Counted from the stretch's first letter, positions 10,333 through 33,340 are shown. The stretch: DNA of 34,819 nucleotides from an uncultured Gammaproteobacteria bacterium (GCA_965364245.1 CBDTVS010000001.1:1-34819); one strand, 5' to 3'. Notes: a model not told the origin generated them from the sequence alone. A program made the numbers and translations.

Positions 10333-10769
10333 CGCGGGAGGACTTCGACGGGGCCTGGACCTGACGCGTCGGCCTGCAGTCGGACCAGGCTGTCGTGATA
10401 GGTGGTCTCGAGGGTGTAGTCCGTGTCGCCGTGCGAATAGGTCACCCAGCCGTTGAGGAAATCGATGGGCAGGGTGTCGGGGAGTTCGCCGGTCTGCTTG
10501 CGGTACATCTCGATGTCTTCGGCCGTGTGGCTGAGGATGCCAGCGATCTGCTCGACGGTCTCGCCGCTGTCATGCGGTGCGAACCACGCGCTGAAATGAT
10601 CGCGCTCCGCGTAGACGGCCAGCACCAGCGCAACCCAGACGGTGAGGGTCAGCGGCCACCTGGACCCCACAGGCTTGGCGCTGCTCGCGAGCTTTGCGCG
10701 TCGTTCCCAGGAGTCGACCTCGTTCTGGGCCGCGGAGATGGTGCTGTTCAGGTCTTGATGTTGTGCCAT
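10329..10769 (-). CDS. Small bitopic membrane protein of unknown function (146 aa)
   Basis: ORF 10329..10865 trimmed to the ATG at 10769, which is preceded by aggaac. Single TM WPLTLTVWVALVLAVYA, with about 90 aa predicted outside. It sits 14 nt after the pilin-like gene and is coupled to the ATPase gene. I recognise no family. Confidence 0.6.
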   Translation of the reverse strand: MAQHQDLNSTISAAQNEVDSWERRAKLASSAKPVGSRWPLTLTVWVALVLAVYAERDHFSAWFAPHDSGETVEQIAGILSHTAEDIEMYRKQTGELPDTLPIDFLNGWVTYSHGDTDYTLETTYHDSLVRLQADASGPGPVEVLPR

Positions 10770-10783
10770 GACGTGTTCCTCGA

Positions 10784-12074: not shown

Positions 12075-12476
12075 TCAGATTCCGTGATGCTGCGGATCTT
12101 CAGGCAGCGTCGGATCGACCGTATCGGCACCAGCATCCATACCGGCATCCAGGTTGTCGTCCGGCAAGACGTTCTCCGACTGCGCGTCAGGCGCATCGTC
12201 CAGCGCCGGGTCTGGTGGCATGACGTGCTCCACGGGTTGCACATTGGCCGGGTCCACCCCCGCGGCGACGAGGTAGTCGTCGAGCGGGGAGGGGGGTGAC
12301 TTGTCAGCCGCGTCGGATGTCCCGGTCTGGTGCGTCGTGTCCGCAAACTGCATGTAATCGGCAACGGCGTCGCCCGGGTCGGACCCAGAGTCGGTTGCAC
12401 CTGCCTGATCGTCGAACGCGGTCTCGTGCGCACCCTGGGAGTTGTCATCCACGGGTGGTGTCAGATCGCCCACGGC
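12075..12476 (-). pseudogene. Orphan, diverged copy of the giant adhesin's C-terminal 133-codon acidic tail (gene remnant or stand-alone tail ORF)
   Basis: Gapless hand alignment of 133 aa to the last 133 aa of the 17442..31907 product gives 76 identities. Conserved islands are AVGDL, DYMQFADTT, SPLxDYLVAAGV and DPQHHG[IV]-stop. An in-frame stop lies at 12531-12533, the only start is GTG at 12473, and I see no Shine-Dalgarno. Confidence 0.6.
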
Positions 12477-12642
12477 GCCGGCGTGTGAAGGTGGAGTCGC
12501 GACCCGCCAGCGAGCTGGGACTAGCCCTTGTCATACCCTCAGCAGACCACCCGAGCACAGGCAGTCAGGGCATCCTCACGCTCTAATGGCTTCACCCATC
12601 CCGCACGCTGACATGTGCCCCACCCGTGGCCGAGTAGCTCAC

Positions 12643-14544
12643 TCAGCCACCAACATGAGCGTTTTGTGGCAGCACCAGATTCACGCCGTTTGGCGTTATC
12701 ACGTCGAAAAGTGACAGGAACCGCTTGGCGTCGGCTCGGTCTCCATCGATGGTGATCGACTCATGAAGCTGCCCTGTACCGATCGTCTGAAGTATCGCTG
12801 CCTTCGAGCCGCGAATCGTCACATCGGCCGCCATCAGCGGACCGTCGGTGAATGCTGCCACTTTGTTTCGGATGGTGTAGCCGGAAGTCTCGTCCGTATC
12901 GGTGGTCACGAATTGGACACTGATTTTCTCGCCAGCCGCGCGCTCAGCATTGAGGCGCACGCTCATCGTGCTGAGGATCTTGTTGGTCGGCAATACCGCG
13001 ACAATTGCCGGGTCCGCGAAATTCCAAGGCGTGGTGCGATCGATTGTGCCATCGAGCTCCGCGGCGTTCGAGAGTCCAAAGTTGCGCCAATAGATATTGG
13101 TCTGGTGGTGAGCCCACGAACGGAGTGCCTCCGACTTGAGGTTGCGCGCATCCATGTCACTCGGCTCGGAACGTGTCAGGTGCGTCAGGAGTTCTGCCGC
13201 CCAGCCGTAGTTATTGGCATCCACGGCTGCCCGAGCCCGATCCATGATGGCGTCCCGACCGCCGAGTGCCTCGACGTACTGATCCGCGAGATCGTTCATG
13301 CCGGGCCGGGCAAGTTGCGTCGCGTCACCTTCCCACCAACCGATGTAGCCGTTGTAGATGTTGCGTACGGAGTGGGCGACGGTACCGTAGTACTCCACGA
13401 GCCAAGGGTCACTCGCGAAAGGTTCGGGAAGCACGACTTTCTCGGCGAGTTGATCACGCTTGTAGCCCTGGTTGATCCAGTAAATCGTCTGATCGTGAAC
13501 GTACTGAATAGCGTCTCGGTAGTTCTGGATGCGCTCGACGATGAAGTCATTACCGACCCAGGAGCGCATGTGAGAACCCGAGTAGGATTTGGCTTTCTGC
13601 GCATACCATAGAAGCACATTGACACCGTTCATCCACTTCGCCACGTCACGGTAAGACGTGCCGCGGAGTGTGTAGAGGTTTGGAAAGGTCTCGCCCTGAA
13701 TCGTCTCGGAGCCATGCAGATGGTTGTACTCGGGAAAATAGATCGCGATCTCGTCAGTGTCCGCGTCGCCGTAGGCGTGGAACACCTCCATTTCGACACC
13801 GCCGATGTTGTACGTTCTGGGCTGCTCGTAGGGCACCTCCGAGGTTGGGAGGTAGAACGAGATTGGCCCTGCGCTAAAGGCTGGCCCCAGCCCGTTGTGC
13901 ACCGGACCTTCCGGGCCGGGTTTCAGATAGCCTGCAGCATAGGCTGTGCGCTGCGTCAGGATGTTGCCAACAACCCCAACGTCATTGACCAGATTGTCGA
14001 CGAAGTTCTCCGAAGCGATGATCTGCGTCCGCCCTGATGCCACATCCTCTGGCGTGACGCCAAAACCGGCCGAGCCAAAGGCATGGTCAGGGTGTCGGTG
14101 GGTGTAGAGAATCGCTACGATCGGCATCGTCGCGATCTCTGGCTTGACCTCGGCGAGAGTATCCAGAACATCTTTCGCCGCGTCGTCGTCGGACCCGGGG
14201 TCGATCACGATCAACCCGTTCTCGGTCACCGCGATTAAGGGCGAGGTAAGCTGGAATCCAAAGGCGTGGTAGAGCTTGTCCGGCACGATCTCGTAGATCG
14301 TCTTTGGCATCATCCGCGCAAAGGCGGTCATGGCCGGATGGATCGTATCTGCTTGTTCTGTATATGCGAGGTTTTCGCCCTGCCAGATCACAGGAGCGAG
14401 GTGCTTCAAAACGTCGGGATTGTTGAAGACGCTGGCATCCGTGCTACGCACAGGGCTGTTGAGTGGACCATATCTGGTCTGCGCGCTGGCATTGGATGCG
14501 AGCGTTAGTGAAATGAAAATTGTTAGCAGCATGTATCTTGGCAT
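12643..14544 (-). CDS. Secreted alkyl/aryl-sulfatase-like metallo-beta-lactamase-fold enzyme (SdsA1/BDS1 family)
   Basis: ORF 12643..14715 trimmed to the ATG at 14544. Signal peptide MPRYMLLTIFISLTLASNASAQ. MBL motif YTHRHPDHAFGS. The length (633 aa) and C-terminal region match alkyl sulfatases with dimerisation and SCP2-like domains (from memory). Confidence 0.8.
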   Translation of the reverse strand: MPRYMLLTIFISLTLASNASAQTRYGPLNSPVRSTDASVFNNPDVLKHLAPVIWQGENLAYTEQADTIHPAMTAFARMMPKTIYEIVPDKLYHAFGFQLTSPLIAVTENGLIVIDPGSDDDAAKDVLDTLAEVKPEIATMPIVAILYTHRHPDHAFGSAGFGVTPEDVASGRTQIIASENFVDNLVNDVGVVGNILTQRTAYAAGYLKPGPEGPVHNGLGPAFSAGPISFYLPTSEVPYEQPRTYNIGGVEMEVFHAYGDADTDEIAIYFPEYNHLHGSETIQGETFPNLYTLRGTSYRDVAKWMNGVNVLLWYAQKAKSYSGSHMRSWVGNDFIVERIQNYRDAIQYVHDQTIYWINQGYKRDQLAEKVVLPEPFASDPWLVEYYGTVAHSVRNIYNGYIGWWEGDATQLARPGMNDLADQYVEALGGRDAIMDRARAAVDANNYGWAAELLTHLTRSEPSDMDARNLKSEALRSWAHHQTNIYWRNFGLSNAAELDGTIDRTTPWNFADPAIVAVLPTNKILSTMSVRLNAERAAGEKISVQFVTTDTDETSGYTIRNKVAAFTDGPLMAADVTIRGSKAAILQTIGTGQLHESITIDGDRADAKRFLSLFDVITPNGVNLVLPQNAHVGG

Positions 14545-14773
14545 GGTCCGGAATCTCTTTAAATATCGGCCTTGAAAGGCTAGCAAAATTCGGCTTTCTG
14601 TTTTGATTTGCCTTATTACTTTCTGATGCAGATCAAGAGTCGCGGTAGCGATGACCTTGCGGTACGGAAGTCGCACTTGCAAGGTGAGATACTTGCCCTG
14701 TTCCGGCCAAACCACGAAGGTGCGTTTAACGACTGGCCATAGGCCGGACCTGAATTGGAATACTTAGCTGAAC

Positions 14774-17221
14774 ATGCCACTTCGGTTGAAAATCATACTG
14801 CTCGTAATCCTCCCAATTTGTGGGCTCTTCTTCCTGTTGAAGCTCTACGATTATTACCATTACGAGCGGCTCTCAGAGCGTGAGATAAAACAGAAGCTTC
14901 TGGAGCAATCGCAGAAGCACAGCAAAAGCGTTGACGCGATACTTCGTCAGGCGAGTTCTACCGCCACCAGCATGGCCGATTTCCTTTCCGTCACGGGTGG
15001 TGTCGTAAGTGAGGACGAACTCTACGAAGCATTGGAATTGAACCTGCTGAGAAATGACTTGGTGTACGGTTCCGCCGCCGCGTTTGTGCCGGGCTATTTC
15101 GAGGGGCGGAGGCGATTCAGCCCCTATGTCTACCGATCTGGATCGGCACTTCAAAGAATCGATATCGGTGCGAGCGCATACGACTACACCGAGCCCCAGT
15201 GGGAGTGGTTCGCCAAGCCTGTGGCAACCGGAAAGTTCGTCTGGAGCCGGCCCTATTTCGACGAGGGTGCCGGCAACATTCTGATGGTCACCTTCTCAGC
15301 CCCGGTTCGTGGACGTGGTGATGAGGTTATGGGCGTGGTCACCGTGGATCTGGATGTCACGAAGCTCCCCGAACTTGCGGCGATAGAGAGCACCGAAGGC
15401 GAGCATTTCATGCTCGTCGACCAATCCGGAATCATCATCTACGACTCCATAAGTGAGAATATTGGACTTGATTTCCTGGAGGTTGAGTATTTTTCCAACA
15501 TGCGATCGAGTGATCTCAAGTCGCTGCTTGGAGCTCCAGTACCTCGTCTGGCAGACATCGATTCTGTCGACCAGGGGGTCAGTTGGCTCGCCGTTTCCAA
15601 GGTTCCATCATCCGATTGGTTTTTCCTCGTATCCATGCGGGAAGAGAATGCGCTGGCAATACTTTTCTCCCAGCAGTTGAGGGTCATCGGCGTTGTTCTA
15701 TTCATATTGATGGTATTTGTCTTCGTCTCCTGGTTGCTGACGGGAAACATCATCAGGCCAATCAGAAAAATAGCTCTGGCAGCAGAGGACATCGCATCCG
15801 GAGATTATGGCGCGTCGTTGCCGCCCCCAACGAAAGATGAAATCGGCAGTCTCTCGGTTGCATTCGCTACGATGAGGGACCGGGTTCTTGAGCGTGAACA
15901 GGACCTCAGGGAGATCAACGAAACCCTGGAGCAGCGGATCGAAGAGCGGACTCGGCGACTTTCAGAAAGCGACCGTAATCTCCAGCTGACTCTCGACAAC
16001 ATGCCAGGCGCGCTCATCGTTACCGCGCCGGACCTGTCGATTCGTGTCCTTACATCCAATTTCAATGAGTACGTGAACCTACCGAAGGATTTTATCAGGG
16101 CGGGTGACAGTCACGAGAAGATCCTCCGCTACATGGCGATGAACGGATACTACGGGGAGGATGTGGACGTGGAGAAAGTGGTGCAGGAACGCATCCTCTC
16201 GATATTGAATCCGACAAGCGAGATTCTGTACGACCACATGCCCGACGGTCGGGTCAACGCAGTCACACGAAGGCGCTCGAAAGAAGGAGATGTCATCACC
16301 GTGGTCGTGGACGTGACCGAACAAAAGCAGCGTGAGACAGAGCTCGATGCTGCGAAAAGCAAGCTCGCCGAGAGAAATTCAGTTCTCGAGAATCTCTCAG
16401 GACAACTCGCAAAGTACCTGTCTCCGCAGATTTACGATGCGATATTCACCGGAAAGTCGGGCACTGACATCACAACTCAACGCAAGAAGCTGACGGTTTT
16501 CTTTTCCGATATCAAGGATTTCACATCAACGACGGAAGAGCTGGAACCTGAAGACATGACGTTCCTTCTCAACGACTACCTCACCAAAATGACCGATATC
16601 GCACTAGAGCATGGTGGGACGATCGACAAGTACAACGGCGATGCGATCATGGTGTTTTTCGGCGACCCCGACACGCGTGGCGTCAAGGAGGATGCCGTTG
16701 CAGCGGTCAACATGGCCATAGCGATGCAGCGGCGCATGGTGGACTTACGGGCGAAATGGACGGACATGGGCTACAGGACGCCCTTTCATATCCGCTGCGG
16801 GATCAACACCGGCTACTGCAATGTCGGTAATTTCGGCTCAGAACAAAGAATCGACTACACGATTATCGGCGGCCAGGTGAACCTAGCTGCTCGCCTGGAA
16901 TCAATTTGCGAACCGGACGGAATCACTATCGCTTACGAAACCTACACCCTCGTCAGAGATACGGTCGATGCGGAGCAGATCGAATCGATTCAGGTCAAGG
17001 GCATCAGGGATCCCGTGCAGCCCTACAAGATTTTGGGTGTCATGGAAAATTGGGACGCCTCCGAGCGCTACATCCGCAGCAACGACGTCACGGGGATGCG
17101 TCTTTGGGTCGATGTTACAAGGATATCGCCCAAGCAGCGCGATGCTTCGATTAAGCGTCTGGAAAGCGCCATCGAACGACTCAAGAATCTGGACATCGAG
17201 GCTGACGAAGGGAGCGCCTAG
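14774..17221 (+). CDS. Membrane sensor class III adenylate cyclase (TM - Cache-like periplasmic domain - TM - HAMP - coiled coil - PAS-like - CYCc)
   Basis: 815 aa. There is an N-terminal TM and a second TM, VIGVVLFILMVFVFVSWLL. HAMP: IRPIRKIALAAEDIASGDY...DEIGSLSVAFATM. Cyclase core: LTVFFSDIKDFTS, IDKYNGDAIMVFFG, DYTIIGGQVNLAARLES. The Lys (KYNGD) and Asp (DYT) at the specificity positions favour ATP. Confidence 0.9.
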   Translation: MPLRLKIILLVILPICGLFFLLKLYDYYHYERLSEREIKQKLLEQSQKHSKSVDAILRQASSTATSMADFLSVTGGVVSEDELYEALELNLLRNDLVYGSAAAFVPGYFEGRRRFSPYVYRSGSALQRIDIGASAYDYTEPQWEWFAKPVATGKFVWSRPYFDEGAGNILMVTFSAPVRGRGDEVMGVVTVDLDVTKLPELAAIESTEGEHFMLVDQSGIIIYDSISENIGLDFLEVEYFSNMRSSDLKSLLGAPVPRLADIDSVDQGVSWLAVSKVPSSDWFFLVSMREENALAILFSQQLRVIGVVLFILMVFVFVSWLLTGNIIRPIRKIALAAEDIASGDYGASLPPPTKDEIGSLSVAFATMRDRVLEREQDLREINETLEQRIEERTRRLSESDRNLQLTLDNMPGALIVTAPDLSIRVLTSNFNEYVNLPKDFIRAGDSHEKILRYMAMNGYYGEDVDVEKVVQERILSILNPTSEILYDHMPDGRVNAVTRRRSKEGDVITVVVDVTEQKQRETELDAAKSKLAERNSVLENLSGQLAKYLSPQIYDAIFTGKSGTDITTQRKKLTVFFSDIKDFTSTTEELEPEDMTFLLNDYLTKMTDIALEHGGTIDKYNGDAIMVFFGDPDTRGVKEDAVAAVNMAIAMQRRMVDLRAKWTDMGYRTPFHIRCGINTGYCNVGNFGSEQRIDYTIIGGQVNLAARLESICEPDGITIAYETYTLVRDTVDAEQIESIQVKGIRDPVQPYKILGVMENWDASERYIRSNDVTGMRLWVDVTRISPKQRDASIKRLESAIERLKNLDIEADEGSA

Positions 17222-17441: not shown

Positions 17442-20400
17442 TTAGACGCCATGATGTTGCGGATCGTCTAGCAGTGAAGGATCAGCCACATCGCCCCCCG
17501 TATCTAAACCCTCATCGATCATATCTTCGGGAGATGTTGGCGCCGGTTGGGTATCGGGGACATCGACAAGTGTAGGGTCGGGAGAAGTGACCGATTCGAC
17601 CTGCTGCAAATCAGTAGGCTCTACGCCTGCCGCCACGAGATAGTCGGCCAGCGGGGAAGGCACGGCCCCATCCGCTGCAGCTGGTGAGTCGCCCTGCTGA
17701 GTTGTGTCCGCGAACTGCATGTAATCGTCAACGGCGTGATCGGAATCCGTACCCGAGCCCGTGGCGACCATGGTGTCGTCGTAGCTGGTATCGTGCACTT
17801 CCTGGGAGGTGTCGTCCGTGGGTGGCGAGAGATCGCCCACGGCGCCGGCCTGGTCGTCTGGCGCCGGTTCGCCCGTGTAGGCGGTGAACATCATGTCCGG
17901 GTGTTCCACGCCGACGACGCTGCCGTCGTCTATCGGCAGCAGTTCGCCGACACTGGCCGATCGGCCGTCGGGCGCGATGGTCACCTCCTGCTGCGCAAGT
18001 GCGAAGTAACCGCTCGGCAACGACGCGATGGCCACCAGTGGCGTTGCCCCATCGGGCAGCGCATGGCCGGTCGCGTCGAGGGTCCAGTGGCCGTCGGCGT
18101 CGGCAGTGGTCGTGCCGAGCTCCAGGTGGCTTGAGTCCATGGTCTGCACCTTGACCGTCGCGCCCGGTGCCGAGCTGCCGCTGATCAGGATCGTCGGGTC
18201 GCTAGTCGTGAAATCGGCCTGTGTGCCGGTATCCGGTGTGATGCCGGTGATACGCACGCCAGGAGCAACCTCGATGATCGCCGTTGCATCGACAACGTGA
18301 CCTTTGCCGTCGGTCAGCTGGTAGCTGATTGCCCGTACGCCCTGCACGCCATGCGCGGGGGTGAAGACGAAGCCACCGTGCCCGTCGTCGGTGACCTGCC
18401 CGTAGCGCGAGGAGAAGGAACCCGCGACGACGCTGAGGGCGTCGCCATCGGCGTCGGACGCGCCGCTCAGCAGCTTGTCCATCGAAAGCTTTGTGCCAGT
18501 CTCCTCGACCGCGACACCAAGATTGACCAAGCTCGAGGCGACCGGTGCGTGGTCTGGGTGGAGGACGTCGACTGTCGCGAAGGTGTCGACCGTGTGGCGG
18601 CCGTCGGTGAGCTGGTAGGCGATGTGCACGTCGTCGCCGCTGAAGCCGGGCTCCGGGTGGAACACGAAGCCAGACTGGGCGTCGCCGGTGATGGTGCCGT
18701 GCGGCGAACTCAGCGACCCCGGAACCAGGGTCAACGCGTCGCCGTCAGCATCGGTCGCGCCGGCCAGCAGTGTGTTGATGTCGAGCGGTAGCGGCGCGCC
18801 GGCCTCCACCTCACCAAGGTCGGTGTCAGACGCCGCGATCGGTACCGTGTCGACGACGAAGCTAGGGGAGGTGAGGTGGGCGCCGGTGGTCTGGCCGCGC
18901 ATCTGTCCGCCGACGTTGAACACGATGTAGAGCTCCTTGCCCTGCAGGTTCAGCAGATCGTTTTCGTCGAATGTCACCTCGAAGTGGCCGTTCGCCTCCA
19001 TTTGCACCTGGCCGCCGCCGGCCATGCCGCTGCCCTCACTTACCATGACTGCGGAGGTCAGCTGCAGCTGGCTCAGCTCGGGGCCGGTCACCTGGCCAAC
19101 GGCAACCAGCCCATGGCCGAGACGCGCGGCATCGAGGTCGCCGAGATCGGCGATCGGGTGAGTGTGCGCGGTGTCATCGGCGTAGTAGTAGCTGACGCCC
19201 TCGATCGCCATACGCGCCGGCGGGGTGATATCGAGTGTGGCGTCGGCCGTGACGCTCGTGGTGCCGTCCGTGACCGTGACTTTCACCGGAATGTCGTCGT
19301 GGGTCACGCCAGAAACCGGGGTCAAGGCCCAGCTGTCACCCGTATGGGTGATCACGCCGTACTGCGGATCGACCCAGACGCTGCTGATCGCTAGCTGGTC
19401 GGCCGCGGTGTCGACGTCGGTCGCATGCACGGTCTGCAGCAGTTCTGCGCTGGTGAAGGTCCTGGTCAGACCCTGTTCGACCGTGCCGAGGTCGCCTGCC
19501 TGGACGTTTGGCGCATCGTCGGTCCCGGCGATAGTCACGTGAAGCTGGTGGGCGGTGCCGTCGGCGCTGTTTACTGTGATGGTGTCGGTGAGTGTTTCGC
19601 CTGCGGCGAGTGCGTCGACCGCCTGATGGCTGTCGTCGAGTCGGTAGACCCAGGTCCCACCGACACTGATCGAGAAGTGACCGTAACCCTGGTCGCTCTG
19701 CGCGTTGAACAGCGGTGTGAACAGCTCCTCGTTGCTGCCGTCGAGGTCGCTGATGCCGAGGCGGCCGGTCGCTAGTCCGCTGACGTCCTCGGTGACGGTC
19801 TCATGGCTGGTGTCTGTGATCACCGCCGCGTGGCTGACCGCGACGGTGTCGAAGTCGGCATGGGTCGCGACCCGCGCGCCCTGCGGATCGACGACGTCAT
19901 AGGTTAGACGCACCGGACCCTCGTAGCCCGCCTCGGGAGTGTAGAGGTAACCACCGGCCGGGTCGGCGGTGACGGTGCCGTGAGAGACCTCCAGGTTCTG
20001 CGCGCTGTGGCCCATCGAGAGCAGCGCGCGCGCCACCTGGGTCGAGGGGCCAGTGCTGACCGAGGCGAGGTTCTCGACTGAGAGCGCGTCACCGTCGGGG
20101 TCGGATGCATGCGCCAGGAGTTGCGCCTCGCTGATGTGCAGCGGCATCGCCGCGTCGGCATCGGTCAGCGTGACGGGAGCGCTGACCACCGGCGCGTCGT
20201 TGGTCCCGGTGACGGTTACGACCAGGTGCGCGGTAGCGGTGTTGCCCGCCGCGTCGGTGATCTCGTAGGTGAATCGTTCCTGGTGTGACTCGCCGGCCGC
20301 GAGCACCTGTGCGCGGGCGTCGAGGGTGTATGTATAGCCACCGTCGGCTTGCAGCGCGAGGGTGCCGTAGGCGCCCTGCTGGTCAGCGGTGGAGGTCACC

Positions 20401-23400
20401 GTCGCGCCGGCCTCGTCGTTAGCGAGCACGTTGCCGGTGACGGGACCTGCCTGGTCCTCGGTGGCCGAGGCGCGGTCGTCCACGGCGACCGCCTTGTCAT
20501 CGAGGGCCTGTAGTGCATCCGCCTGGCCGGGCACCTCCACCATCGCCTGGCCGGCGTGGTTGACCGCCACCTTCAGCGTGAGGTCGGCCAGATCACCGAA
20601 TGAGTCCATGTTCATGACGTGGACCGGGAAGCTCTCTTCGGCGGGCGAGCCCGCCGGAATCTGTGCGGCTTTGGATGGGTCGACCACGTAGTTCCAAGTG
20701 CCGGTCAGCTCGTCGACGGTCAGGGTGCCGTACTTACCCTCGACGACCGACTGATCGCTGCCCCGCTCGAGGTCGTTGTAGTCGGCGACGAAGTTGAAGG
20801 TGTCGTGTGCGTTGTCCGGGTCGACTGCCTGCAAGTGACCACCGACCACAGCTGCGGGGCCACGCGTGCTGGTGCCGGCCACATCAACTAGCTGCAGTGG
20901 GTCGTTGTGTCCATGGATGATCACGGTGAGATCACGGTTGGCGCCGTCCTCGGTACGTACCGTGAAACGCTCTTCGTAAGGGCCGCCGGCGAGCTCCTGG
21001 GCCCGGTCGGTGTCGAGGGCGTAGGTCCAGGTGCCCTGCGCGTCGATCTGGAAGTGACCGTAGTGGCCGTCCTGACCTTCAGCGACGAAGGCGGGTGGCG
21101 TGCCCTTGTTGGTGTCGATGTCGAAGTCGCCGGTCAGCGTCGACGTGCTGTCCTCGTCGGTCAGCGCCAGAGGCGATCCTGTGATGACCGTGTAGCTTGC
21201 CCCGCTCGGATCGACGGTCACGGTTGCGGGGGCGCTGGCCGCGCTGTCGCCGGTGACCGGGTCGGTAGCGACGGCGGCGACCTGCAGGTGGAGCACCCCG
21301 GAGTGGAGCACCTGGAGACCCTGTGCCTCAGCCTCGGTCACGGTCCACGAGCCGTCGGCGTTGCGCGTGCCGGACGAGAGCTCAGCCTGTTCCAGCCCGG
21401 TGATGCGCCAGGCGAGCTGCTGATTGGTGTCGGCGCTGTCGCCTACGGCGGCGGAGAGGGTGAGCGGCGTCTCGAAGCGCAGCAGCTCGGCCTCGACGCG
21501 CTCCACACCGACGTTGGTCGAGAACTGCGTCGTGCCGCCGGAACGCGTGGCTTCCGGGGCCGGTGCCTCGGCGTGCAGCGCGACGAAGGCGAATGGGTTC
21601 TGCGTCTCGATCGGTAGCGCCTGGACGGCGGCGCCCTGGCCGGTGGACTCGAGCACGCCGTGGTCGACCGGCGTGCCGTCGGCGGCGTAGGCGGTCCACG
21701 TGAGCTTGTCCCCATGGCCGCTGAGGCCGTTGAGCAGCAGCACGGCGCTCTTCGACACGCCCTGGAGTTCGATGACCAGCGTCTCGCCGGGCTGGTCGCC
21801 CTTGTCCTGGCCCTGGATGATCTGTGAGTCAATGGAGTCCTGCTCGGGTGCGGTCCCCTGGGCAACCGCCGGCCGCGCTGCATCTACGCCGAAGGTGTCA
21901 CCATGGGCGTTGGTGCCGAGACGGGCCGTTTCGAGCGCCGGCAGCTGCAGGTTGCCGTTCGCGTCCTCGAACGCTTCGCCGAAGCCGAGGGCGTGCATGA
22001 CGAAGCCGGTCGATTGCACGCTGCCAACAGTGGCGTGCGCCTCGGCGTGGCCGGCGGCAGCCTGCGTCGCCCCCGTGGAGACAGAGAGCGACGGTGCGTC
22101 CATGCTGCCGTGGATTGTGACCGTCAGGGTGTGCGTGGTGCCGTCGAGGCTGCGCACCTCGGCGGTTTCGACCAGCGTCTGGCCCGGACCGAGAGCCTGG
22201 ATGGCCGGGTTGTTCGCATCGGCCGTGTAGAACCAGTCGCCACCGGCGGTGATGCCGAAGGTGCCCAGGCCGCTGCTGCCGTCGATCTGCAGGTCATCGA
22301 CGAACCGGTCCTCTCCGCTATCGACGTCGCTTATCGCGAGCTTGCCGGCGAGGCTTAGGTGACCCATCCTGGTGTCGTCTTCGTCCACCGAGAGGGTATC
22401 GACACCCGCGATCTGCGCGACGTCGCCGGTGCCGGCAATGTTGATGGTGACCACCTGGGGCGTGCCGTCGACGCTGCCGACGGTGATGCGCTCCACAAGA
22501 TTCTGACCTTCGGCCAGTGACTGCACATCGGGATGGTCGTTGGCGAGCGTGAAGGTCCAGGCACCCTGCGCGTCGAGGGTGAAGTGGCCGTGCGGGGTGT
22601 CACGGTCGATCGGCACGAAGGCCGATTCGCCGACGTTAGGGTCGGACACCGACATTCGGCCAGAGGTGCTGATGTCAGTATCTTCTTTGACCACGCCAAC
22701 CGTGACGCCCCCGAAGATGGCCGGGGTGTTGCCGCCCTTGATCTGCAACACGATGTCGTGGCTGGTGCCGTCTGCGGTTTCCACCCGGAAGCTCTCCGGG
22801 ACCTGTTCGCTGTCGGCGAGCCGGGCAAGGGCCGGCTGGGAGGCGTCTGCCGAGTAGCTCCAATGGCCGTCGGGATCGATGTTCAGGAATCCGTAAGCGC
22901 CCTTGATTACCCCGGCCTGGAAGAATGACTCACCATGGTCCGGATCCATGATCATCAACTGGCCGTCAACATGCACTCTGCCGTCCTTGCTGCCCGCCAC
23001 CGAGCCCATGGCGTGGTCGATCCCGCCGATAAGCGGCACGTCGTTGGTGCCAACGATGGTGATCGTGAGCGACCCCTGAGCGGTGGCACCCTGGCTGTCA
23101 GTGACCATCACCGGCACTGCGAGGCGGGTGGTTTCGCTCTCCTGCAGGCGGGCGTAGGCTGGGTTGGAGGCGTCGAAGGTGTAGCTGCCATCGGCGTGCA
23201 GGGTCAGGCCGGGCACCGTAAAGGGTGTCTCAAAGCGCAACGTGTCGCCGGGGTCAGCGTCGCTCGCGCGCAGGTGACCGGAGACGGTGCTGCCTTCCTC
23301 GACCTGGGCGTAGTTGCCGGGATCTGACACCGGCGGCGGGGCGACGCTACCGGAGCCTGGCAGGGGCGGTGCGGGTGGTACTGCACCCGGGGCGAATACC

Positions 23401-26400
23401 GGTGCGTCGTTTTGTGCGGTGATGTCGAACGTGGCGTGGGCCTCGGTCGACAGGCTGCCATCGCTGACGGTGATACGTACCGGGATCGCGTCACCCGAGA
23501 CGTCCTTCTCGGGAACGAACAGCCAGCGACCGTTGGCCAGCGCGTGGAATTCCCCGTAGGCGCTGTCGATGTCGACGCCGGTGACGAGCAGGTTGTCGCC
23601 CTCCGCATCGGTGGCGCCCACCAGGCGCAGCAAGTCTTCCTGTGTGAAGCTGCGCGCCATGTCCTCGAGTGTGGCGCCGAGGTCGGCCGGGGTACCGGCC
23701 GTGGCCGTGACTACCGGGGCGTCGTTGGTGCCAGTCAGGGTGACCACCGCGACCTGCTCGACCGACTCGGCCGTCCCGGCGACCGTCTCGCCAAGGGAAT
23801 ACTTGATGAACACCTCTGCCTTGTCGCCTGCCGCGAGGTGGTCGAAACCTGCGGCCGAGGGATCGACATGCAGGGTGTGGCCATCGGCGTTCAGCGCGAA
23901 GCCGTCCGGCACCCGAGAAGAGAAGTGGACGCCGTCGGTCGAGTAGAGCAGGGGGCCAACACTCAGGCCATCGACGCCCTCGCGCAGGTCGATCGCGCCC
24001 GCCTGGCCGTCCTCTGTCAGGTCCTGCGTCAACTGACCCTGGTCGATGATCTCGGTGCCGGTGTGCAGCGTGTGGCCGAACTTGTCGGTCGTGGTCACCT
24101 TGACCTGCCAGTCGTGATCGCCGCTGACCCGGTCCATCTGGGTGTGGTCGAGGGTCGCCGTCCAGCCGCCGCCGCTGGCCGTGGTTGCCAGGTCGTAGAC
24201 GATCGACGCGTCGTTGCGATCGACCAGGTGCAGATGCACCTGGGTGCCGTCGGGCACGCCGGTGGCGGTGCCCTGCACCGTGACGTCACCGGAGGTGATT
24301 TCGTAAGCCTCGGCGGCCCATTTGCTGCCACCGCCTCCGGGGTGATTGGCCCCATGCACCGGGTGGCCACCGCGCGTTTCGATTCGCACCTCGAGTGCAT
24401 TGTCGATTCGGTCGATCGACAGCTCGGAATGGGTTTGGGTATCGATGCTGGTCTGTGCCGGGGCGCTGGCCGGCGACGGGTTGCCGGCGGCGTCGGTGGC
24501 GAACGCGCGGAAGGTGTGGTCGCCGTCCGCGAGGTCGGTGGCCGGCGTGAAGGTAAAGGTCCCGGCGGCGGTCGCCGTGGCGGTGCCGAGCACCTGGCCG
24601 TGGTCGGTGATGGTAACGATGGCGCCCGGCTCGGCGACGCCCTGCAGCGTCGGCGTGGCGTCGGGCAGGTTGGCGGCGAGCGTGCTGAGCGTCGGGCGCA
24701 CCGGCGCGACGTCGTCGACCACCTCGAGCTGGAAGTCCTGGTGAACGCTCGCGCCGTCGGTGTCGGTGGCCTCGATGCGCAGGTTGAGCGCGCCGACATT
24801 GGCGTGGCCAGGATCGCCGCTGAAGGTCTGCGTGTCGGGGTCGAAATGGAGCCATGTGGGCAGCGGGCTGCCGTCGGCGAGGGTTGCTGCGTAGGTCAGC
24901 GTGCCGCCCTCGGCGTCGGTGAAGGTGCCGGCCGGGACACGTGCCTGAAGGTGGTCGCCCTCGCCGATGCGGAAGTTGGGGATCGCGGTGGCGACCGGAC
25001 GGTCGTTGGTGCCCTGCACCGTCACGACGACCTCGTGGGTGGTGCCGTCGGTGGTCACCACGGTGATGCGGTCGGTTTCGCTTTCGCCCGTGCCGAGGGA
25101 CTGAACGGCGGGTCGGTCGTTGTCGAGTACGTACACCCAGCTGCCGTTGGCATCGAGGTGCAGGGTGCCGAAGGTTCCGGCGTAGTCGTCGGCGCGGAAG
25201 GCGTCCTCGCCGGTGTCGGCGTCGCTGACGGTCAGCGTGCCGCGCGCGGTCGTGGCGGTGTCCTCGGTGACGGTGGCGCTGTCCGTGCCGCCGATCACTG
25301 CACGGTCGTTCGTGCCGACGATGTCGACAGTGACGGTGTGCTCGGTCCCGTCGAGGCTGGTGACCTTGAACGGGATACTCAGCTGGTCGCCGTCGCCCAG
25401 GGCCTGGATCGCTGGGTCGTCGCCATGAGCCATGAAGGTCCAGCGCCCGCTGGGGGTGAGGACAAGCACGCTTTGGTGAGGGCCGTGGATGTTCTGCGCC
25501 GCGAATCCGGCTTCGTCGGTGTCGATGTCGGACACGCTGAGCTGGCCGTGCGCGACGAGGTCATTTGACAGGGACTGGCTGAAGTCGTCCTCGTCGATGG
25601 CGGCGTGGTCCACGCCAGCGATGTGCGCGGCATCGTTGGTGCCGTGGATGGTCAGCGTGAGTATCTGCTCGGTGCCGTCGACGGTCCGCACCGTGAGCTG
25701 CTCGGTGACGCGGTCGCCCTCGCCCAGCGCCTGGACCGAGGCCAGGCCGTTGTCGAGCGCGTAGTTCCAGTGGCCGGCGGCATCGATGTGGAGCGTGCCG
25801 TAGCTGCCCGCGACGTCGCCGGCTTGGAAGTGCGCCTCGTCGCGGTCGACGTCGGCGACCGTCAGCGTGCCTCGCGCGGTGGTTGCGCTCTCCTCGGTGA
25901 CGTCGCCGCTGCGGGCGCCGCCGATCACGGCCGCGTCGTTGGCGCCCTCGATGGTGACCGTCAGCGTCTGCCGGGTGCCGTCTAGCGTGGTCACAACCAG
26001 CTGGTCGGTCACCCGCTCGCCTGCCGCGAGCTGTTGGATCGCAGGGTTGCTGTTGTCGGCGATGTAGCTCCAGCGGCCGTCGCTGTCGATGGTGAAGTGG
26101 CCGTAGCCGCCGCTGCCCTCGACGTCGGTCTGCACCTGAAAGCTGCTCTCGCCGAAATCAACGTCACTGACATTTAGGCGACCGCTGTAGGCGAGCTGGC
26201 CCGGGTGGGCTTCGCGGTCCTCCCACAGAACTGCGCCGTCATCGCCGGTGACGGTCGGACGGTCGTCGGTCCCGTTGATATGCACGACGATGTCGTGGGC
26301 GGTGCCGTCGGCGGTGCGCACGGTGAGGGTGTCGGTGGTGAAGTCGCCGTCCCCGAGTTCCTGCACTTCGGGGTTGGAGTTGTCGAGGGTGTAGGTCCAG

Positions 26401-29400
26401 GCCCCGTCTGCGTCGATGTGCAGCGTGCCGAAGACCCCGGCGACGTCGCCGGCCTGGAAATGGGCCTCGCCGGTGTCGGCGTCGCTGACGCTCAGCGCAC
26501 CGGTCGCGGTAAGCGCGTTGTCCTCGGTTACGGCACCGCTGCTCGCGCCGCCGATCACCGGGGCGTCGTTGCTGCCGGCGATGATCACGGTGACGATCTG
26601 CGGGGTGCCGTCGGCGCTGCTGACCATCACCCGCTCGGTCAGAGTGGCGCCATTGCCGAGGCCCTGGACGGCGGGGTTGGTGACGTCGAGGGTGTAGGTC
26701 CAGGTACCGTCCTCGGCGAGCGTGAAATGGCCGTGATCGGTGTCGTGGTCGACGGCGTTGAAGTGGGCCTCGGTCGGATTGGGGTCGATGACGTCGAGCT
26801 TGCGGGTGAGGCTGTTGGCCTGGTCCTCGACAACCAGGCCGCGCGACACGCCGCCGATGATCGCGGTCGAGGTGGAACCGTAGATGTTCAGGTCGATGGC
26901 GTGTTCGGTGCCGTCGGCGGTGCGCACGACGAAGTGCTCGGCCGCCGAGGCCCCGGGGCCGAGCGAGGCGAGCGCGGTCTGGGTGGCGTCGGCGCTGTAA
27001 CTCCAGCGGCCGTCCGCGCCGATGCCGAGAGTGCCGTAGCTGCCCTGGAGCAGCATCGACTGGAAATGGGATTCACCGGTGTCGACGTCGAAGATGGTGA
27101 GCTCGCCGCCGAGATGCAGATGGCCGCCGTGGGCGTCGGCGGTCGAGGCGATCGCGGCGTCGACACCACCGATGATGGGCGCGTCGTTGGTGCCGGTGAG
27201 GTGAATCTCCAGATTGCGCTGGTCGCTGGCGCCGAACTGGTCGGTGACGACGATGGGGACGGTGATGTCGCGGGTCTCGCCGGCGGCGAGGCTCTGGTAG
27301 ATCGGGTGGCTGGCGTCGAAGGTGTAGCTGCCGTCGGGGTTGAGCGTCAGGCCGAGCACCGGGGCGCCGACGCGGAAGGTGAGCTGCGCACCGCTGTCGG
27401 GATCGCTGGCGTCGAGGGTGCCGCTGATGCGCGCGCCCTCGTCGACGCTGCGCGCCGTGATCGCCTGCAGCACCGGTGCGTCGTTGGTGCCCACCAGATT
27501 GACCCTGATCGTCGTGCGGTCGCTGGCACCCTGGTCATCGGTAACGCTGACGACAAAGGTCTCGGAAGCGTGCTCGCCGAGCGCGAGGGCGCGGGTCGCG
27601 TCGCGCGACGCATCGATCGTGTAGCTCCATGCGCCGGTCGCGGTATCGAGCACTAGGCTCCCATAGCTGCCGTCGGTGTGGTCGGCGGACCAGGTCAGCG
27701 TGGCCGAGATGTCCGTGTCGGATGCAACCAGCGTGCCCGCGAGCTGGCCGCTACCGCTGCCTATCTGCAGGTTGCCGCCAGCCGTAGTGCCGGCGATTTG
27801 CGGCAGGTCGTTGGTCCCGTTGATACGCACGACGATGTTGTGGGCGGTGCCGTCGGCGGTGCGCACGGTGAGGGTGTCGGTGGTGAAGTCGCCGTCCCCG
27901 AGTTCCTGCACTTCGGGGTTGGAGTTGTCGAGGGTGTAGGTCCAGGCCCCGTCTGCGTCGATGTGCAGCGTGCCGAAGACCCCGGCGACGTCGCCGGCCT
28001 GGAAATGGGCCTCGCCGGTGTCGGCGTCGCTGACGCTCAGCGCACCGGTCGCGGTAAGCGCGTTGTCCTCGGTTACGGCACCGCTGCTCGCGCCGCCGAT
28101 CACCGGGGCGTCGTTGCTGCCGGCGATGATCACGGTGACGATCTGCGGGGTGCCGTCGGCGCTGCTGACCATCACCCGCTCGGTCAGAGTGGCGCCATTG
28201 CCGAGGCCCTGGACGGCGGGGTTGGTGACGTCGAGGGTGTAGGTCCAGGTACCGTCCTCGGCGAGCGTGAAATGGCCGTGATCGGTGTCGTGGTCGACGG
28301 CGTTGAAGTGGGCCTCGGTCGGATTGGGGTCGATGACGTCGAGCTTGCGGGTGAGGCTGTTGGCCTGGTCCTCGACAACCAGGCCGCGCGACACGCCGCC
28401 GATGATCGCGGTCGAGGTGGAACCGTAGATGTTCAGGTCGATGGCGTGTTCGGTGCCGTCGGCGGTGCGCACGACGAAGTGCTCGGCCGCCGAGGCCCCG
28501 GGGCCGAGCGAGGCGAGCGCGGTCTGGGTGGCGTCGGCGCTGTAACTCCAGCGGCCGTCCGCGCCGATGCCGAGAGTGCCGTAGCTGCCCTGGAGCAGCA
28601 TCGACTGGAAATGGGATTCACCGGTGTCGACGTCGAAGATGGTGAGCTCGCCGCCGAGATGCAGATGGCCGCCGTGGGCGTCGGCGGTCGAGGCGATCGC
28701 GGCGTCGACACCACCGATGATGGGCGCGTCGTTGGTGCCGGTGAGGTGAATCTCCAGATTGCGCTGGTCGCTGGCGCCGAACTGGTCGGTGACGACGATG
28801 GGGACGGTGATGTCGCGGGTCTCGCCGGCGGCGAGGCTCTGGTAGATCGGGTGGCTGGCGTCGAAGGTGTAGCTGCCGTCGGGGTTGAGCGTCAGGCCGA
28901 GCACCGGGGCGCCGACGCGGAAGGTGAGCTGCGCACCGCTGTCGGGATCGCTGGCGTCGAGGGTGCCGCTGATGCGCGCGCCCTCGTCGACGCTGCGCGC
29001 CGTGATCGCCTGCAGCACCGGTGCGTCGTTGGTACCAGTGACCGACACGGTCAGGGTGGCGCTGGCGCTGTTCCCGGCAGCATCGATGATGGTGTAGTCG
29101 ACGCGGTCGGGCTGCGTCTCGCCCGCGGCGAGGTGCTGGGCGTTGGTGTTGAGCGTGTAGGTGAACGACCCGTCCGACTCGAGGTGGAAGGTGCCGTATT
29201 GCCCGGCGACCCCGCCGGCGGTGGTGAGCGTGGCGCGGGTGCCGTCGTTGGCGAGTAGGTTCCCGTGGGTCGTGCCCGCCTGGTCCTCGGTGGCGGTGAA
29301 GCTGTCGTCGGTGGCCACGAGCGTGGTGTCGATCGTGACCGCGAGGTCGGGTGAGGAGGTCGGTGGCAGGCCGTTCGGGGCGGTGGCCTGCGCGCTGAGT

Positions 29401-33324: not shown

Positions 33325-33340
33325 TGAAGGTACTCGTCTA

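What the first reader, a model, noticed from the sequence alone, without database searches (positions are those of the whole stretch)
12075..12476. Orphan diverged copy of the giant adhesin's C-terminal tail, 5 kb downstream on the same strand
The last 133 aa of the 4,821-aa protein and the 133 codons ending at 12078 align without gaps, with 76 identical positions by hand count. The conserved islands are AVGDL, DYMQFADTT, SPLxDYLVAAGV and DPQHHG[VI] followed by the stop. Homology starts abruptly at AGAVGDL in both. Upstream of the orphan the frame closes at TGA 12531-12533. The only start is GTG at 12473, with no visible ribosome-binding site. A short GGGCC(C)AT-type similarity about 20 nt past both stops may extend the homology, but this is weak and by eye only. 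Orphan C-terminal cassettes downstream of a full-length gene are a hallmark of polymorphic systems such as CdiA-CT and Rhs. I am not aware of this for a T1SS adhesin tail. The alternatives are a relic of a rearrangement or a small tail-only product.
Basis: seen in the sequence. Interest (0 to 1): 0.8.

Follow-up and report, generated by a model that had tools for sequence, protein, structure and literature searches.

The report
Leftover tail of giant adhesin gene
A 133-codon copy of the end of a giant secreted adhesin gene really does sit 5 kb downstream of that gene, but it is most likely a left-behind gene end from a DNA rearrangement, not a new kind of swappable cassette.

Summary
The 133 codons ending at 12078 align without gaps to the last 133 residues of the 4,821-aa adhesin (76/133 identical, composition-adjusted E=2e-46).

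The tail is an unannotated, very rare C-terminal module. Only 10 cluster representatives matched among 1.84 billion. It always ends in QHHGV/I/M, is predicted to be mostly disordered, and lies next to type I secretion genes in several loci.

Tail-only ORFs recur in at least five other metagenomic lineages. Their 5' breakpoints differ, and in three of those lineages the surroundings are visibly decayed: an adhesin split by insertion sequences (IS), a truncated outer-membrane gene, and a fusion to a truncated dehydrogenase.

In this window the two copies flank a lower-GC segment (cyclase + alkyl sulfatase) as direct repeats. Homology starts in both at a 20-nt perfect block. The giant's present tail uses island-like codons. 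The orphan also sits at a synteny break upstream of a conserved pilin operon.

Best reading (about 0.6): a young, displaced or left-over 3' gene end, laid out like icd–e14–icdC, though the segment has no integrase.

The orphan is not degenerate, so a functional tail-only product (about 0.2) is not excluded. A CdiA/Rhs-like polymorphic cassette is not supported.

The parts
12075..12473 (-). Orphan tail ORF (132 aa from GTG 12473; homology to the giant's tail spans 12078-12482). Called as a gene in public annotations (P0001).
12463..12482 (-). 20-nt block GCCGGCGCCGTGGGCGATCT at the 5' edge of the orphan's homology. It is identical to 17830-17849.
   Evidence: family D1: 77 nt, 79% identical, spacing 5367.
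17830..17849 (-). The same 20-nt block inside the giant gene, at the boundary between the last folded domain and the acidic tail. The second assembly, L001, has one mismatch here (17847).
17442..17849 (-). Present C-terminal tail of the giant adhesin (135 codons + stop). Its last ~90 codons have island-like synonymous codon usage and low GC3 (0.53, against 0.85 in the body).
17442..31907 (-). Giant adhesin, 4,821 aa, with Cadherin_4, Big_9, Cadherin_5, VCBS and tandem-95 repeats. No RTX repeats were detected.
12643..14715 (-). Alkyl sulfatase (MBL fold plus Alkyl_sulf_dimr and Alkyl_sulf_C). The public call starts at 14544 (633 aa). Part of the lower-GC segment (56.8% GC).
14774..17221 (+). 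dCache-HAMP-PAS class III nucleotidyl cyclase. Part of the lower-GC segment (53.6% GC). No close homologue in the database (best 42% identity).
31984..33429 (-). Type I secretion (T1SS) HlyD-family periplasmic adaptor (TIGR01843), immediately upstream of the giant.
33341..34819 (-). Type I secretion ABC permease/ATPase of the LssB type (TIGR03375). The reading frame runs off the contig end.
8203..11905 (-). Pilin-like gene (10784-11905), a 146-aa gene and a T2SSE/MshEN-receiver ATPase. This operon is conserved in relatives L013 and L014, which have LysE upstream instead of the orphan. It marks the synteny break.

Best explanation
**Claim.** The orphan is a young, left-behind 3' end of an adhesin gene. 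It was produced by the rearrangement that placed the ~5.3-kb lower-GC segment (a replacement tail, a cyclase and an alkyl sulfatase) between the adhesin body and what is now the orphan. It is not a gene maintained for its own function.

**Most likely form (inferred, about 0.4).**
- The orphan is the giant's original tail.
- Incoming DNA carried a homologous tail from a related adhesin and recombined at, or close to, the 20-nt block that opens the tail.
- The giant therefore now ends in the imported tail, and the native tail was displaced to the far side of the insert as a direct repeat.
- This is the layout of icd, prophage e14 and the icdC C-terminal pseudogene in E. coli.

**What the tail is.** It is an undescribed, acidic, largely disordered C-terminal module ending in QHHGV. 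It most likely serves as the type I secretion signal region of these adhesins. That function is inferred from position and gene linkage and has not been shown.

**Shown:** the homology, the repeat-flanked compositional island, the codon-usage assignment, the synteny break, and recurrent tail-only remnants elsewhere.

**Inferred:** the direction and mechanism of the event, the lack of function of the orphan, and the secretion-signal role.
For: 1. **Direct repeats around a compositional island.** The two copies are in the same orientation, 5,367 nt apart. They flank the cyclase (53.6% GC) and sulfatase (56.8% GC), against 63-68% GC on either side.
2. **Sharp homology boundaries.** Homology starts abruptly in both copies at a 20-nt perfect block and ends at the stop codons.
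3. **The giant's present tail looks imported.**
   - The log-likelihood ratio (native minus island model) for its last 90 codons is -20.9.
   - That value lies outside all 52 body chunks (minimum -0.3) and all 43 native-gene chunks (minimum -9.2), and inside the island range (-31.9 to -1.5).
   - GC3 falls from 0.82-0.84 to 0.44 across the tail.
4. **The orphan looks like a normal native tail.**
   - In other family members the tail's GC3 is about 0.03-0.16 below that of the body or neighbouring genes.
   - The orphan (0.74 against 0.85) fits that pattern.
   - The giant's tail (0.53) does not.
5. **Synteny break.** Relatives L013 and L014 (ATPase 78% and 69% identical) keep pilin-p146-ATPase. 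Upstream they have LysE and no tail, sulfatase, cyclase or adhesin.
6. **Tail-only ORFs elsewhere have different 5' breakpoints, and three of the five lineages show decay.**
   - L008-10: a Cadherin_4 giant split by two IS elements.
   - L003-6: a half-length OEP gene and an inserted toxin-antitoxin pair.
   - L022: half a tail fused to a truncated alcohol dehydrogenase.
   - L020: keeps a 'GTDDAP' scrap of the adhesin body.
   - L011: no secretion or adhesin gene within 6 kb.
7. **No dedicated start signals.** The orphan's GTG 'start' is simply the ancestral Val codon, present in the giant too, with no SD or promoter match.
8. **Precedent for the layout.** e14 is flanked by icd, which extends into the prophage, and by the icdC C-terminal pseudogene (PMC13626634).
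Against: - **No mobility gene.** The segment holds no integrase, transposase or other mobility gene, and the intergenic gaps are under 230 nt. No flanking inverted repeats were found.
- **The orphan is not degenerate.** There is no indel or stop in 133 codons although synonymous sites are saturated. It departs from the family consensus at only 4 columns, all conservatively, against 9 for the giant's own tail. If it is a remnant, it must be recent.
- **The orphan's own codon usage is ambiguous** (native minus island -2.4).
- **The first 45 codons of the giant's tail are compositionally undecided**, so the left junction is not pinned down.
- **No 'empty site' relative was found** that would show the pre-insertion state.
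- **Six of roughly nineteen lineages with this tail hold a tail-only copy.** That is a high share for neutral debris, although the search could only find tails (ascertainment bias).
Confidence: 0.6

Rival explanations
1. The orphan is a functional tail-only small protein. A ~130-aa acidic polypeptide consisting only of the adhesin's C-terminal secretion-signal module would be translated from GTG 12473 or a nearby start. It would then be recognised by the adjacent type I secretion system, either as an exported peptide or as a competitor or regulator of adhesin export.
For: - The ORF is intact, with no indels despite saturated synonymous sites, and dN/dS is 0.12-0.19.
- The orphan keeps the family consensus better than the giant's own tail does (4 departures against 9).
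- It begins exactly at the boundary between the last folded domain and the tail.
- Intact tail-only ORFs recur in several lineages.
- From established knowledge of HlyA-type substrates, a C-terminal fragment alone can be secreted by a T1SS.
- Lack of an SD is not unusual in this window.
Against: - Low pairwise dN/dS is also shown by the IS-split, certainly broken copy (P0015, 0.23-0.24). It is the same for attached-attached, orphan-attached and orphan-orphan pairs. It therefore reflects history before orphaning and is not diagnostic.
- Tail-only ORFs share no conserved N-terminus, start codon or genomic context, and some are plainly deletion products.
- The orphan is absent from the otherwise conserved pilin locus of relatives.
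- No promoter or SD match was found.
Confidence: 0.2
2. The orphan is a spare tail cassette. Recombination between the two direct repeats, for example at the 20-nt block, would delete the cyclase-sulfatase segment and fuse the adhesin body in frame to the orphan tail. This would switch the adhesin's C-terminus, as orphan CdiA-CT/Rhs modules or icd-icdC recombination do.
For: - The copies are in the same orientation and register, so any homologous crossover gives an in-frame chimera.
- The 5' edge carries 20 nt of perfect identity, and third-position identity is 0.80 over the first 15 codons against 0.25-0.47 further on. This may reflect past exchange.
- There is a precedent: icd-icdC chimeras form on e14 excision (PMC13626634).
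Against: - Overall nucleotide identity is only 65%, with a longest exact run of 20 nt, which is a poor substrate for RecA.
- No recombinase is encoded in the segment.
- No toxin or immunity content, and no functional difference between the two tails, is evident.
- The two assemblies show only the unrecombined arrangement.
- The switch would be a one-way deletion.
Confidence: 0.1
3. The orphan is the remnant of a second, separate adhesin paralogue. Its body was deleted, and the cyclase-sulfatase segment is unrelated to the event. This is a variant of the remnant reading without displacement.
For: - The two tails are each other's closest relatives (57% identity against 45% or less to any other member). 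Yet synonymous sites are saturated, as expected for old paralogues.
- Independent deletions that leave only tails are documented elsewhere.
- The orphan's codon usage does not match the giant's body (body minus island -10.1).
Against: - It does not explain why the giant's own tail has island-like codon usage.
- It does not explain why homology starts at the same 20-nt identical block in both copies.
- It does not explain why the copies exactly bracket the lower-GC segment.
Confidence: 0.15

Closest known systems
icd / e14 (and phage 21) / icdC in E. coli K-12: a gene whose 3' end is supplied by an integrated element, with the displaced native C-terminal fragment left as a pseudogene at the far end (PMC13626634).
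   Same: - The full-length gene runs into foreign, compositionally distinct DNA.
[quoted passage not shown]
- Homology starts at a short identical core and ends at the gene's end.
- Deleting the insert would give an in-frame chimera.
   Different: - No integrase or any phage or mobile-element gene lies in the 5.3-kb segment.
- The two ends are far more diverged (57% amino-acid identity, saturated synonymous sites) than icd and icdC.
- The target is a giant T1SS adhesin, not a housekeeping enzyme.
- Excision has not been observed.
Orphan CdiA-CT and Rhs-CT modules downstream of full-length cdiA/rhs genes (named from my own knowledge of these systems).
   Same: - A C-terminal fragment lies downstream of, and in the same orientation as, a very large secreted protein gene.
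- A short homology block at its 5' edge could support recombination.
- The probable origin is displacement by incoming DNA.
   Different: - No toxin domain (a disordered acidic tail).
- No immunity gene.
- No VENN or PxxxxDPxGL-type demarcation motif.
- The tail is a conserved module across the family, not a hypervariable one.
- The secretion route is type I, not type V or VI.
C-terminal secretion-signal regions of non-RTX giant T1SS adhesins (LapA, BapA, SiiE and VCBS/cadherin-repeat proteins; for example NCBIfam TIGR03661, T1SS C-terminal target domain).
   Same: - Extreme C-terminal position.
- Acidic and largely unstructured, with short helices.
- Linked to ABC, HlyD and OEP genes.
- Attached to Cadherin_4, Big_9 and VCBS repeat bodies.
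   Different: - No match to any Pfam, NCBIfam or PDB model.
- An invariant ...(D/T)(P)QHHGV-COOH terminus and a twice-repeated (S)PLxDYLxxA motif, which I did not find described anywhere.
- The family is extremely rare (10 representatives in 1.84 billion).

Membership tests
Polymorphic toxin orphan cassette (CdiA-CT / Rhs-CT type) | The C-terminal region is a toxin or effector domain. | tested here: not met
   No Pfam, NCBIfam or PDB match at permissive thresholds. The AF2 model is mostly disordered, with two short helices, pTM 0.19 and mean pLDDT 60.
Polymorphic toxin orphan cassette (CdiA-CT / Rhs-CT type) | A cognate immunity gene lies immediately downstream of each C-terminal module. | tested here: not met
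   After the orphan there are 170 nt of intergenic DNA, then the pilin operon conserved in relatives. After the giant's tail comes the convergent cyclase gene.
Polymorphic toxin orphan cassette (CdiA-CT / Rhs-CT type) | The C-terminal modules are hypervariable between relatives, beyond a conserved demarcation motif. | tested here: not met
   The tail itself is the conserved element. DYLQFA, SPLDDYLAAAGVD and DPQHHGV are kept in all 17 aligned members. No VENN or PxxxxDPxGL motif is present.
Polymorphic toxin orphan cassette (CdiA-CT / Rhs-CT type) | The orphan keeps a stretch of homology to the main gene at its 5' edge that allows recombination. | tested here: inconclusive
   There is a 20-nt perfect block, and 79% identity over the first 77 nt. 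That is short for RecA-dependent exchange, and no recombinant was seen in either assembly.
Displaced 3' gene end beside an inserted element (icd-e14-icdC type) | The current 3' end of the full-length gene belongs to the inserted DNA. | tested here: met
   The codon-usage log-likelihood ratio for the last 90 codons is -20.9. It lies within the island range and outside all body and native chunks. GC3 is 0.53 against 0.85 in the body, far beyond the 0.03-0.16 deficit seen in other members' tails. The first 45 codons are undecided.
Displaced 3' gene end beside an inserted element (icd-e14-icdC type) | A homologous C-terminal fragment in the same orientation lies at the opposite end of the insert. 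| tested here: met
   Orphan 12078-12482 and tail 17445-17849 bracket the 54-57% GC segment.
Displaced 3' gene end beside an inserted element (icd-e14-icdC type) | An identical core sequence sits at the edge of the duplicated region. | tested here: met
   A 20/20-nt block sits at the 5' edge of both copies. The second assembly has 19/20. The block encodes conserved residues with preferred codons, so chance plus codon bias is not fully excluded.
Displaced 3' gene end beside an inserted element (icd-e14-icdC type) | The insert encodes an integrase or recombinase, or shows other hallmarks of mobility. | tested here: not met
   The segment holds only a sulfatase and a cyclase, with intergenic gaps under 230 nt. 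No terminal inverted repeats. No Rfam match passed its gathering score in a scan of the segment. No tRNA search was run.
Displaced 3' gene end beside an inserted element (icd-e14-icdC type) | An empty site exists in relatives (a gene with the native end and no insert). | not testable with these tools
   The only relatives recovered (L013, L014) lack the whole adhesin region. The tail family was not found in the GTDB genome set.
T1SS C-terminal secretion signal region | It lies at the extreme C-terminus of the substrate, uncleaved, and is linked to ABC, MFP and OMP genes. | tested here: met
   All members end at the stop codon right after QHHGV/I/M. HlyD and an LssB-type ABC lie upstream of the giant. 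An OEP gene lies downstream of the tail in L008-10 and L018, with a remnant in L003-6.
T1SS C-terminal secretion signal region | It is necessary and sufficient for export. | not testable with these tools
   This needs a secretion assay.
Gene remnant / pseudogene | It is homologous to part of an intact gene and lacks the rest of it. | tested here: met
   Only the last 135 codons are present. There is no similarity upstream of the block.
Gene remnant / pseudogene | It shows relaxed constraint (excess non-synonymous change, indels or stops). | tested here: not met
   No indels or stops, and the orphan is closer to the family consensus than the giant's own tail. The IS-split control copy looks equally 'constrained', so this test only says the orphaning is recent.

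The most novel reading that the evidence does not exclude
Tail-only ORFs of this family may not be debris. They could be a recurrent, selectively retained class. Two forms are possible: signal-only polypeptides that use or modulate the adhesin's type I secretion system, or spare tails that can be recombined onto the adhesin. That would extend the 'orphan C-terminal module' principle of CdiA/Rhs loci to T1SS adhesins.
Probability: 0.15. Interest if true: 0.7.

Novelty: new member of a known kind. Interest (0 to 1): 0.35.

Why it matters
If the main reading is right, the orphan itself is ordinary. It is a young gene remnant that annotation pipelines call as a hypothetical protein.

Two by-products are useful.

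1. **A new C-terminal module.** The work defines an undescribed, very rare C-terminal module of giant cadherin/VCBS-repeat adhesins. Its motif pattern is DYLQFA, then SPLDDYLAAAGVD, then DLPPTEVL, ending in DPQHHGV-COOH. The module is linked to type I secretion genes and could be tested as a secretion signal.

2. **Evidence of adhesin gene turnover.**
   - The 3' ends of these giant genes are repeatedly cut off and left behind by IS insertion, deletion and insertion of foreign DNA.
   - Here the gene may have been 're-tailed' by imported DNA.
   - That would be an icd/e14-like layout in an adhesin gene, without a visible integrase.
   - It bears on how giant surface proteins turn over.

If the orphan were instead shown to be expressed and exported, it would be a new type of small T1SS substrate or regulator.

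Tried and rejected
- **Chance or compositional similarity:** rejected (E=2e-46 with compositional adjustment; a codon-position pattern typical of coding sequence).
- **Assembly artefact:** rejected. A second assembly has the same arrangement, and the copies are only 65% identical.
- **dN/dS as proof of function:** I first read ω=0.19 as purifying selection on the orphan. I then rejected it as diagnostic. It measures the whole history since the two tails split, and the IS-split copy gives the same values.
- **Polymorphism between the two assemblies:** no differences in the orphan, so uninformative. The L003-L006 variants are likewise too similar.
- **Single-sequence word-indexed search with the orphan:** it found only itself. 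The exhaustive profile search was needed.
- **Scans for the tail in other collections:**
  - GTDB genomes, IMG/VR viral contigs and plasmids: nothing.
- **Looking for the donor of the island through cyclase homologues:** no close relative (best 42% identity over 61% of the query).
- **Locating the breakpoint by aligning the pilin-upstream intergenic region with L013 and L014:** the sequences could not be aligned.
- **Promoter, terminator, Rfam and RNA-folding checks around the orphan and after both stops:** nothing above background.
- **Read-through from the sulfatase into the orphan:** rejected, because the frames differ.
- **Orphan as part of the pilin operon:** rejected, because relatives lack it.

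Full report
**1. The observation**

The window is a complete 34,819-bp metagenome-assembled contig.

The minus strand carries, in order:
- an LssB-type type I secretion ABC gene, cut by the contig end (33341-34819);
- a HlyD-family adaptor (31984-33429);
- a 4,821-aa protein made of Cadherin_4, Big_9, Cadherin_5, VCBS and tandem-95 repeats (17442-31907).

Downstream of the giant come:
- a convergent dCache-HAMP-PAS nucleotidyl cyclase (14774-17221, plus strand);
- an alkyl sulfatase (12643-14715);
- the orphan ORF (12075-12473);
- a pilin-like gene, a 146-aa gene and a T2SSE/MshEN-receiver ATPase (8203-11905).

The orphan's 133 codons align to the giant's last 133 residues without gaps. There are 76 identities, 136 bits and E=2e-46 with compositional adjustment. 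No third copy exists in the window.

Identity by codon position is 0.78/0.76/0.43. dS is about 1.5 (saturated) and dN/dS is 0.19. This is diverged coding sequence, not a compositional look-alike.

A second assembly, L001 (99.7% identical), shows the same arrangement.

The post-stop GGGCC(C)AT similarity is not meaningful.

**2. What the tail is**

It matches no Pfam, NCBIfam or PDB entry, even at E up to 10.

An exhaustive profile search of 1.84 billion cluster representatives found only 10 proteins at E≤0.001. A second, word-indexed profile search added a few more. Two more loci came from metagenome contigs.

All members carry the module at the extreme C-terminus. The consensus is ...DYLQFAD...(S)PLDDYLAAAGVDP...DLPPTEVLID...DDAAL...(E/D)DPQHHGV-stop.

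Where the upstream part is known, the protein is a cadherin/Ig-repeat protein (window giant; L017; L008).

Type I secretion genes are adjacent in several loci:
- ABC and HlyD in the window;
- OEP in L008-10 and L018;
- an OEP remnant in L003-6.

AlphaFold2, run with the family alignment, predicts a mostly disordered chain with two short helices over the two DYL motifs (pTM 0.19).

The tail contains no basic residues other than His.

My inference is that this is the C-terminal secretion-signal region of a small clade of non-RTX T1SS adhesins. This rests on position and linkage, not on a test.

A literature search for the terminal motif found nothing relevant.

**3. Other orphans exist, and three lineages show decay**

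- **L008-L010 (Rhodoferax MAG).** A Cadherin_4 giant is cut by a Transposase_mut IS. A Pro-rich 304-aa fragment follows, then a DDE_3 IS, then a 117-aa tail ORF, then OEP.
- **L003-L006.** The order is hydrolase, 130-aa tail ORF, PhdYeFM/ParE pair, then a half-length OEP (264 aa with one OEP repeat, against 442-444 aa elsewhere).
- **L020.** A Sel1 gene is followed by a tail ORF that still carries a 'GTDDAP' scrap of the adhesin body.
- **L011.** A tail starts only about 4 residues before DYLQFA. It lies between an alcohol dehydrogenase and a globin gene, with no secretion gene within 6 kb.
- **L022.** Half a tail, from SPLDDYL onward, abuts a truncated ADH_N gene.
- **L007.** This tail ORF has a stop codon upstream but sits on a 1.35-kb contig, so I leave its status open.

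Other short 'proteins' (P0004, P0012, P0014, P0017) are open to the contig edge. P0013 and P0016 begin with adhesin-body-like sequence. All of these are truncated giants.

The 5' breakpoints differ in every tail-only case. There is no shared start or context. That is what independent truncations predict, not a conserved small-protein family.

One caveat is that I searched with the tail, so only tail-bearing remnants could be found.

**4. Why low dN/dS does not prove function**

Pairwise dN/dS among 11 tails with DNA in hand is 0.12-0.46 in the closest pairs listed.

The range is the same whether the pair is attached-attached, orphan-attached or orphan-orphan. The IS-split, certainly broken copy gives 0.23-0.24.

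The statistic therefore reports the long history before orphaning.

A relative-rate count shows the window's orphan departs from the family consensus at 4 columns, all conservatively. The giant's own tail departs at 9.

So the orphan has not drifted. It is either recent or constrained.

**5. Local anatomy**

The cyclase-sulfatase segment is 54-57% GC, against 63-68% on both sides.

The two tail copies bracket it as direct repeats, 5,367 nt apart.

Homology begins in both at GCCGGCGCCGTGGGCGATCT, a 20/20 match. Third-position identity is 0.80 over the first 15 codons and 0.25-0.47 beyond codon 50.

Synonymous codon usage was scored with three models: giant body, island genes and other native genes.

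| Segment | Native minus island LLR | Reading |
|---|---|---|
| Giant tail, last 90 codons | -20.9 | island-like |
| Giant body, 52 chunks of 90 codons | minimum -0.3 | reference |
| Other native genes, 43 chunks | minimum -9.2 | reference |
| Island genes, 16 chunks | -31.9 to -1.5 | reference |
| 135 codons just upstream of the block | +15.6 | body-like |
| Orphan, last 90 codons | -2.4 | ambiguous |
| Giant tail, first 45 codons | +0.4 | undecided |

(All.)

In other family members the tail's GC3 is about 0.03-0.16 below the body or neighbouring genes. The orphan (0.74 against 0.85) is ordinary for a native tail. The giant's present tail (0.53 over its last 90 codons, falling to 0.44) is not.

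Relatives L013 and L014 are Gammaproteobacteria MAGs whose ATPase is 78% and 69% identical. They conserve pilin-p146-ATPase (L013 also has NicX and a hydrolase). Upstream they carry a 437-439-aa gene and LysE. They have no tail, sulfatase, cyclase or adhesin.

The orphan therefore lies exactly at a synteny break.

**6. Interpretation**

The simplest account has three steps.
1. DNA carrying a homologous tail plus the cyclase and sulfatase entered at, or close to, the 20-nt block.
2. The giant now ends in the imported tail.
3. The native tail was pushed downstream.

This is the layout of icd, e14 and icdC. There the prophage is flanked by icd, which extends into it, and by a C-terminal icdC pseudogene. 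Excision fuses icd to icdC (PMC13626634).

It works like that layout, but I do not file it as a member. The segment has no integrase or other mobility gene. No empty site was found, and the left junction is not pinned down.

A variant is that the orphan is what remains of a second adhesin paralogue. That explains the divergence, but not the island-like codons of the giant's tail or the shared block.

A functional tail-only product is not excluded. The ORF is intact and undegenerate, it starts at a domain boundary, and C-terminal fragments of T1SS substrates are known to be exportable. Nothing positive supports it: no SD or promoter, no conserved orphan architecture elsewhere, and it is absent from relatives.

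A CdiA/Rhs-type polymorphic cassette fails its defining tests: no toxin, no immunity gene and no hypervariability.

**7. Verdict**

Novelty is modest: a new example of a displaced or left-over gene end, plus a previously undescribed C-terminal adhesin module. Interest is 0.35.

The most novel reading still open is tail-only ORFs as retained signal-only substrates or spare tails. I give it a probability of about 0.15. It would deserve about 0.7 if true.

Noticed in passing
window 11022-11161 and 11193-11332 (minus-strand pilin-like gene 10784-11905): The 373-aa pilin-like protein contains a tandem duplication of a ~57-aa Cys-containing segment (PQPQQPQSCAAGQVK.TIPAGSSPSGSAFDVCANACGPGEVRSTSNPL). 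The two copies are 90.7% identical at DNA level. The L014 homologue matches only residues 6-180 and 331-373, so the repeat region is variable.
   Followed up: partly
window 6490-6729 (alpha/beta hydrolase gene 6270-7064): 26 of the 50 differences between this contig and the second assembly, L001, are clustered in 240 nt of the hydrolase gene (33 per kb, against 0-2 per kb elsewhere). This suggests a local recombination tract or strain mixing in one assembly.
   Followed up: no
window 8203-10332 (-): The T2SSE-family ATPase has an N-terminal MshEN domain and a C-terminal response-regulator receiver domain fused to it. The fusion is conserved in L013 and L014.
   Followed up: no
window 14774-17221 (+): The dCache-HAMP-PAS class III cyclase has no close homologue in 5.8 billion clustered proteins (best 42% identity over 61% of the query). 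It sits tail-to-tail with the adhesin gene in a lower-GC segment.
   Followed up: partly
L008/L009 8003-8917: Between the two IS elements that split the Rhodoferax adhesin lies a 304-aa ORF made of PEPQPQPVAHVEEPMLEPPLP-type repeats. It is probably the Pro-rich linker that precedes the tail in other members. It has no Pfam match and no BLAST match to the other family proteins.
   Followed up: partly
L018 1266-3948 and L019 608-2451; compare window 4165-4956: In two loci the adhesin tail is followed by an unknown 239-259-aa gene and a META-domain gene. In L018 a full-length OEP then follows. The window has a YscW+META gene about 7 kb away from the orphan. A possible conserved accessory set for this adhesin family.
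   Followed up: no
Protein P0011 (429 aa), residues ~180-200 and the C-terminus: One family member carries an extra internal copy of the 'SPLDDYLQFA' motif far upstream of the terminal module. The terminal module itself contains the motif twice (DYLQFA and SPLDDYLAAAGV). The motif therefore behaves as a short repeat unit.
   Followed up: no
L022 1048-1646: A truncated zinc-type alcohol dehydrogenase gene (ADH_N only, 156 aa) runs in another frame into the distal half of an adhesin tail. This is a clear deletion junction with both partners truncated.
   Followed up: yes
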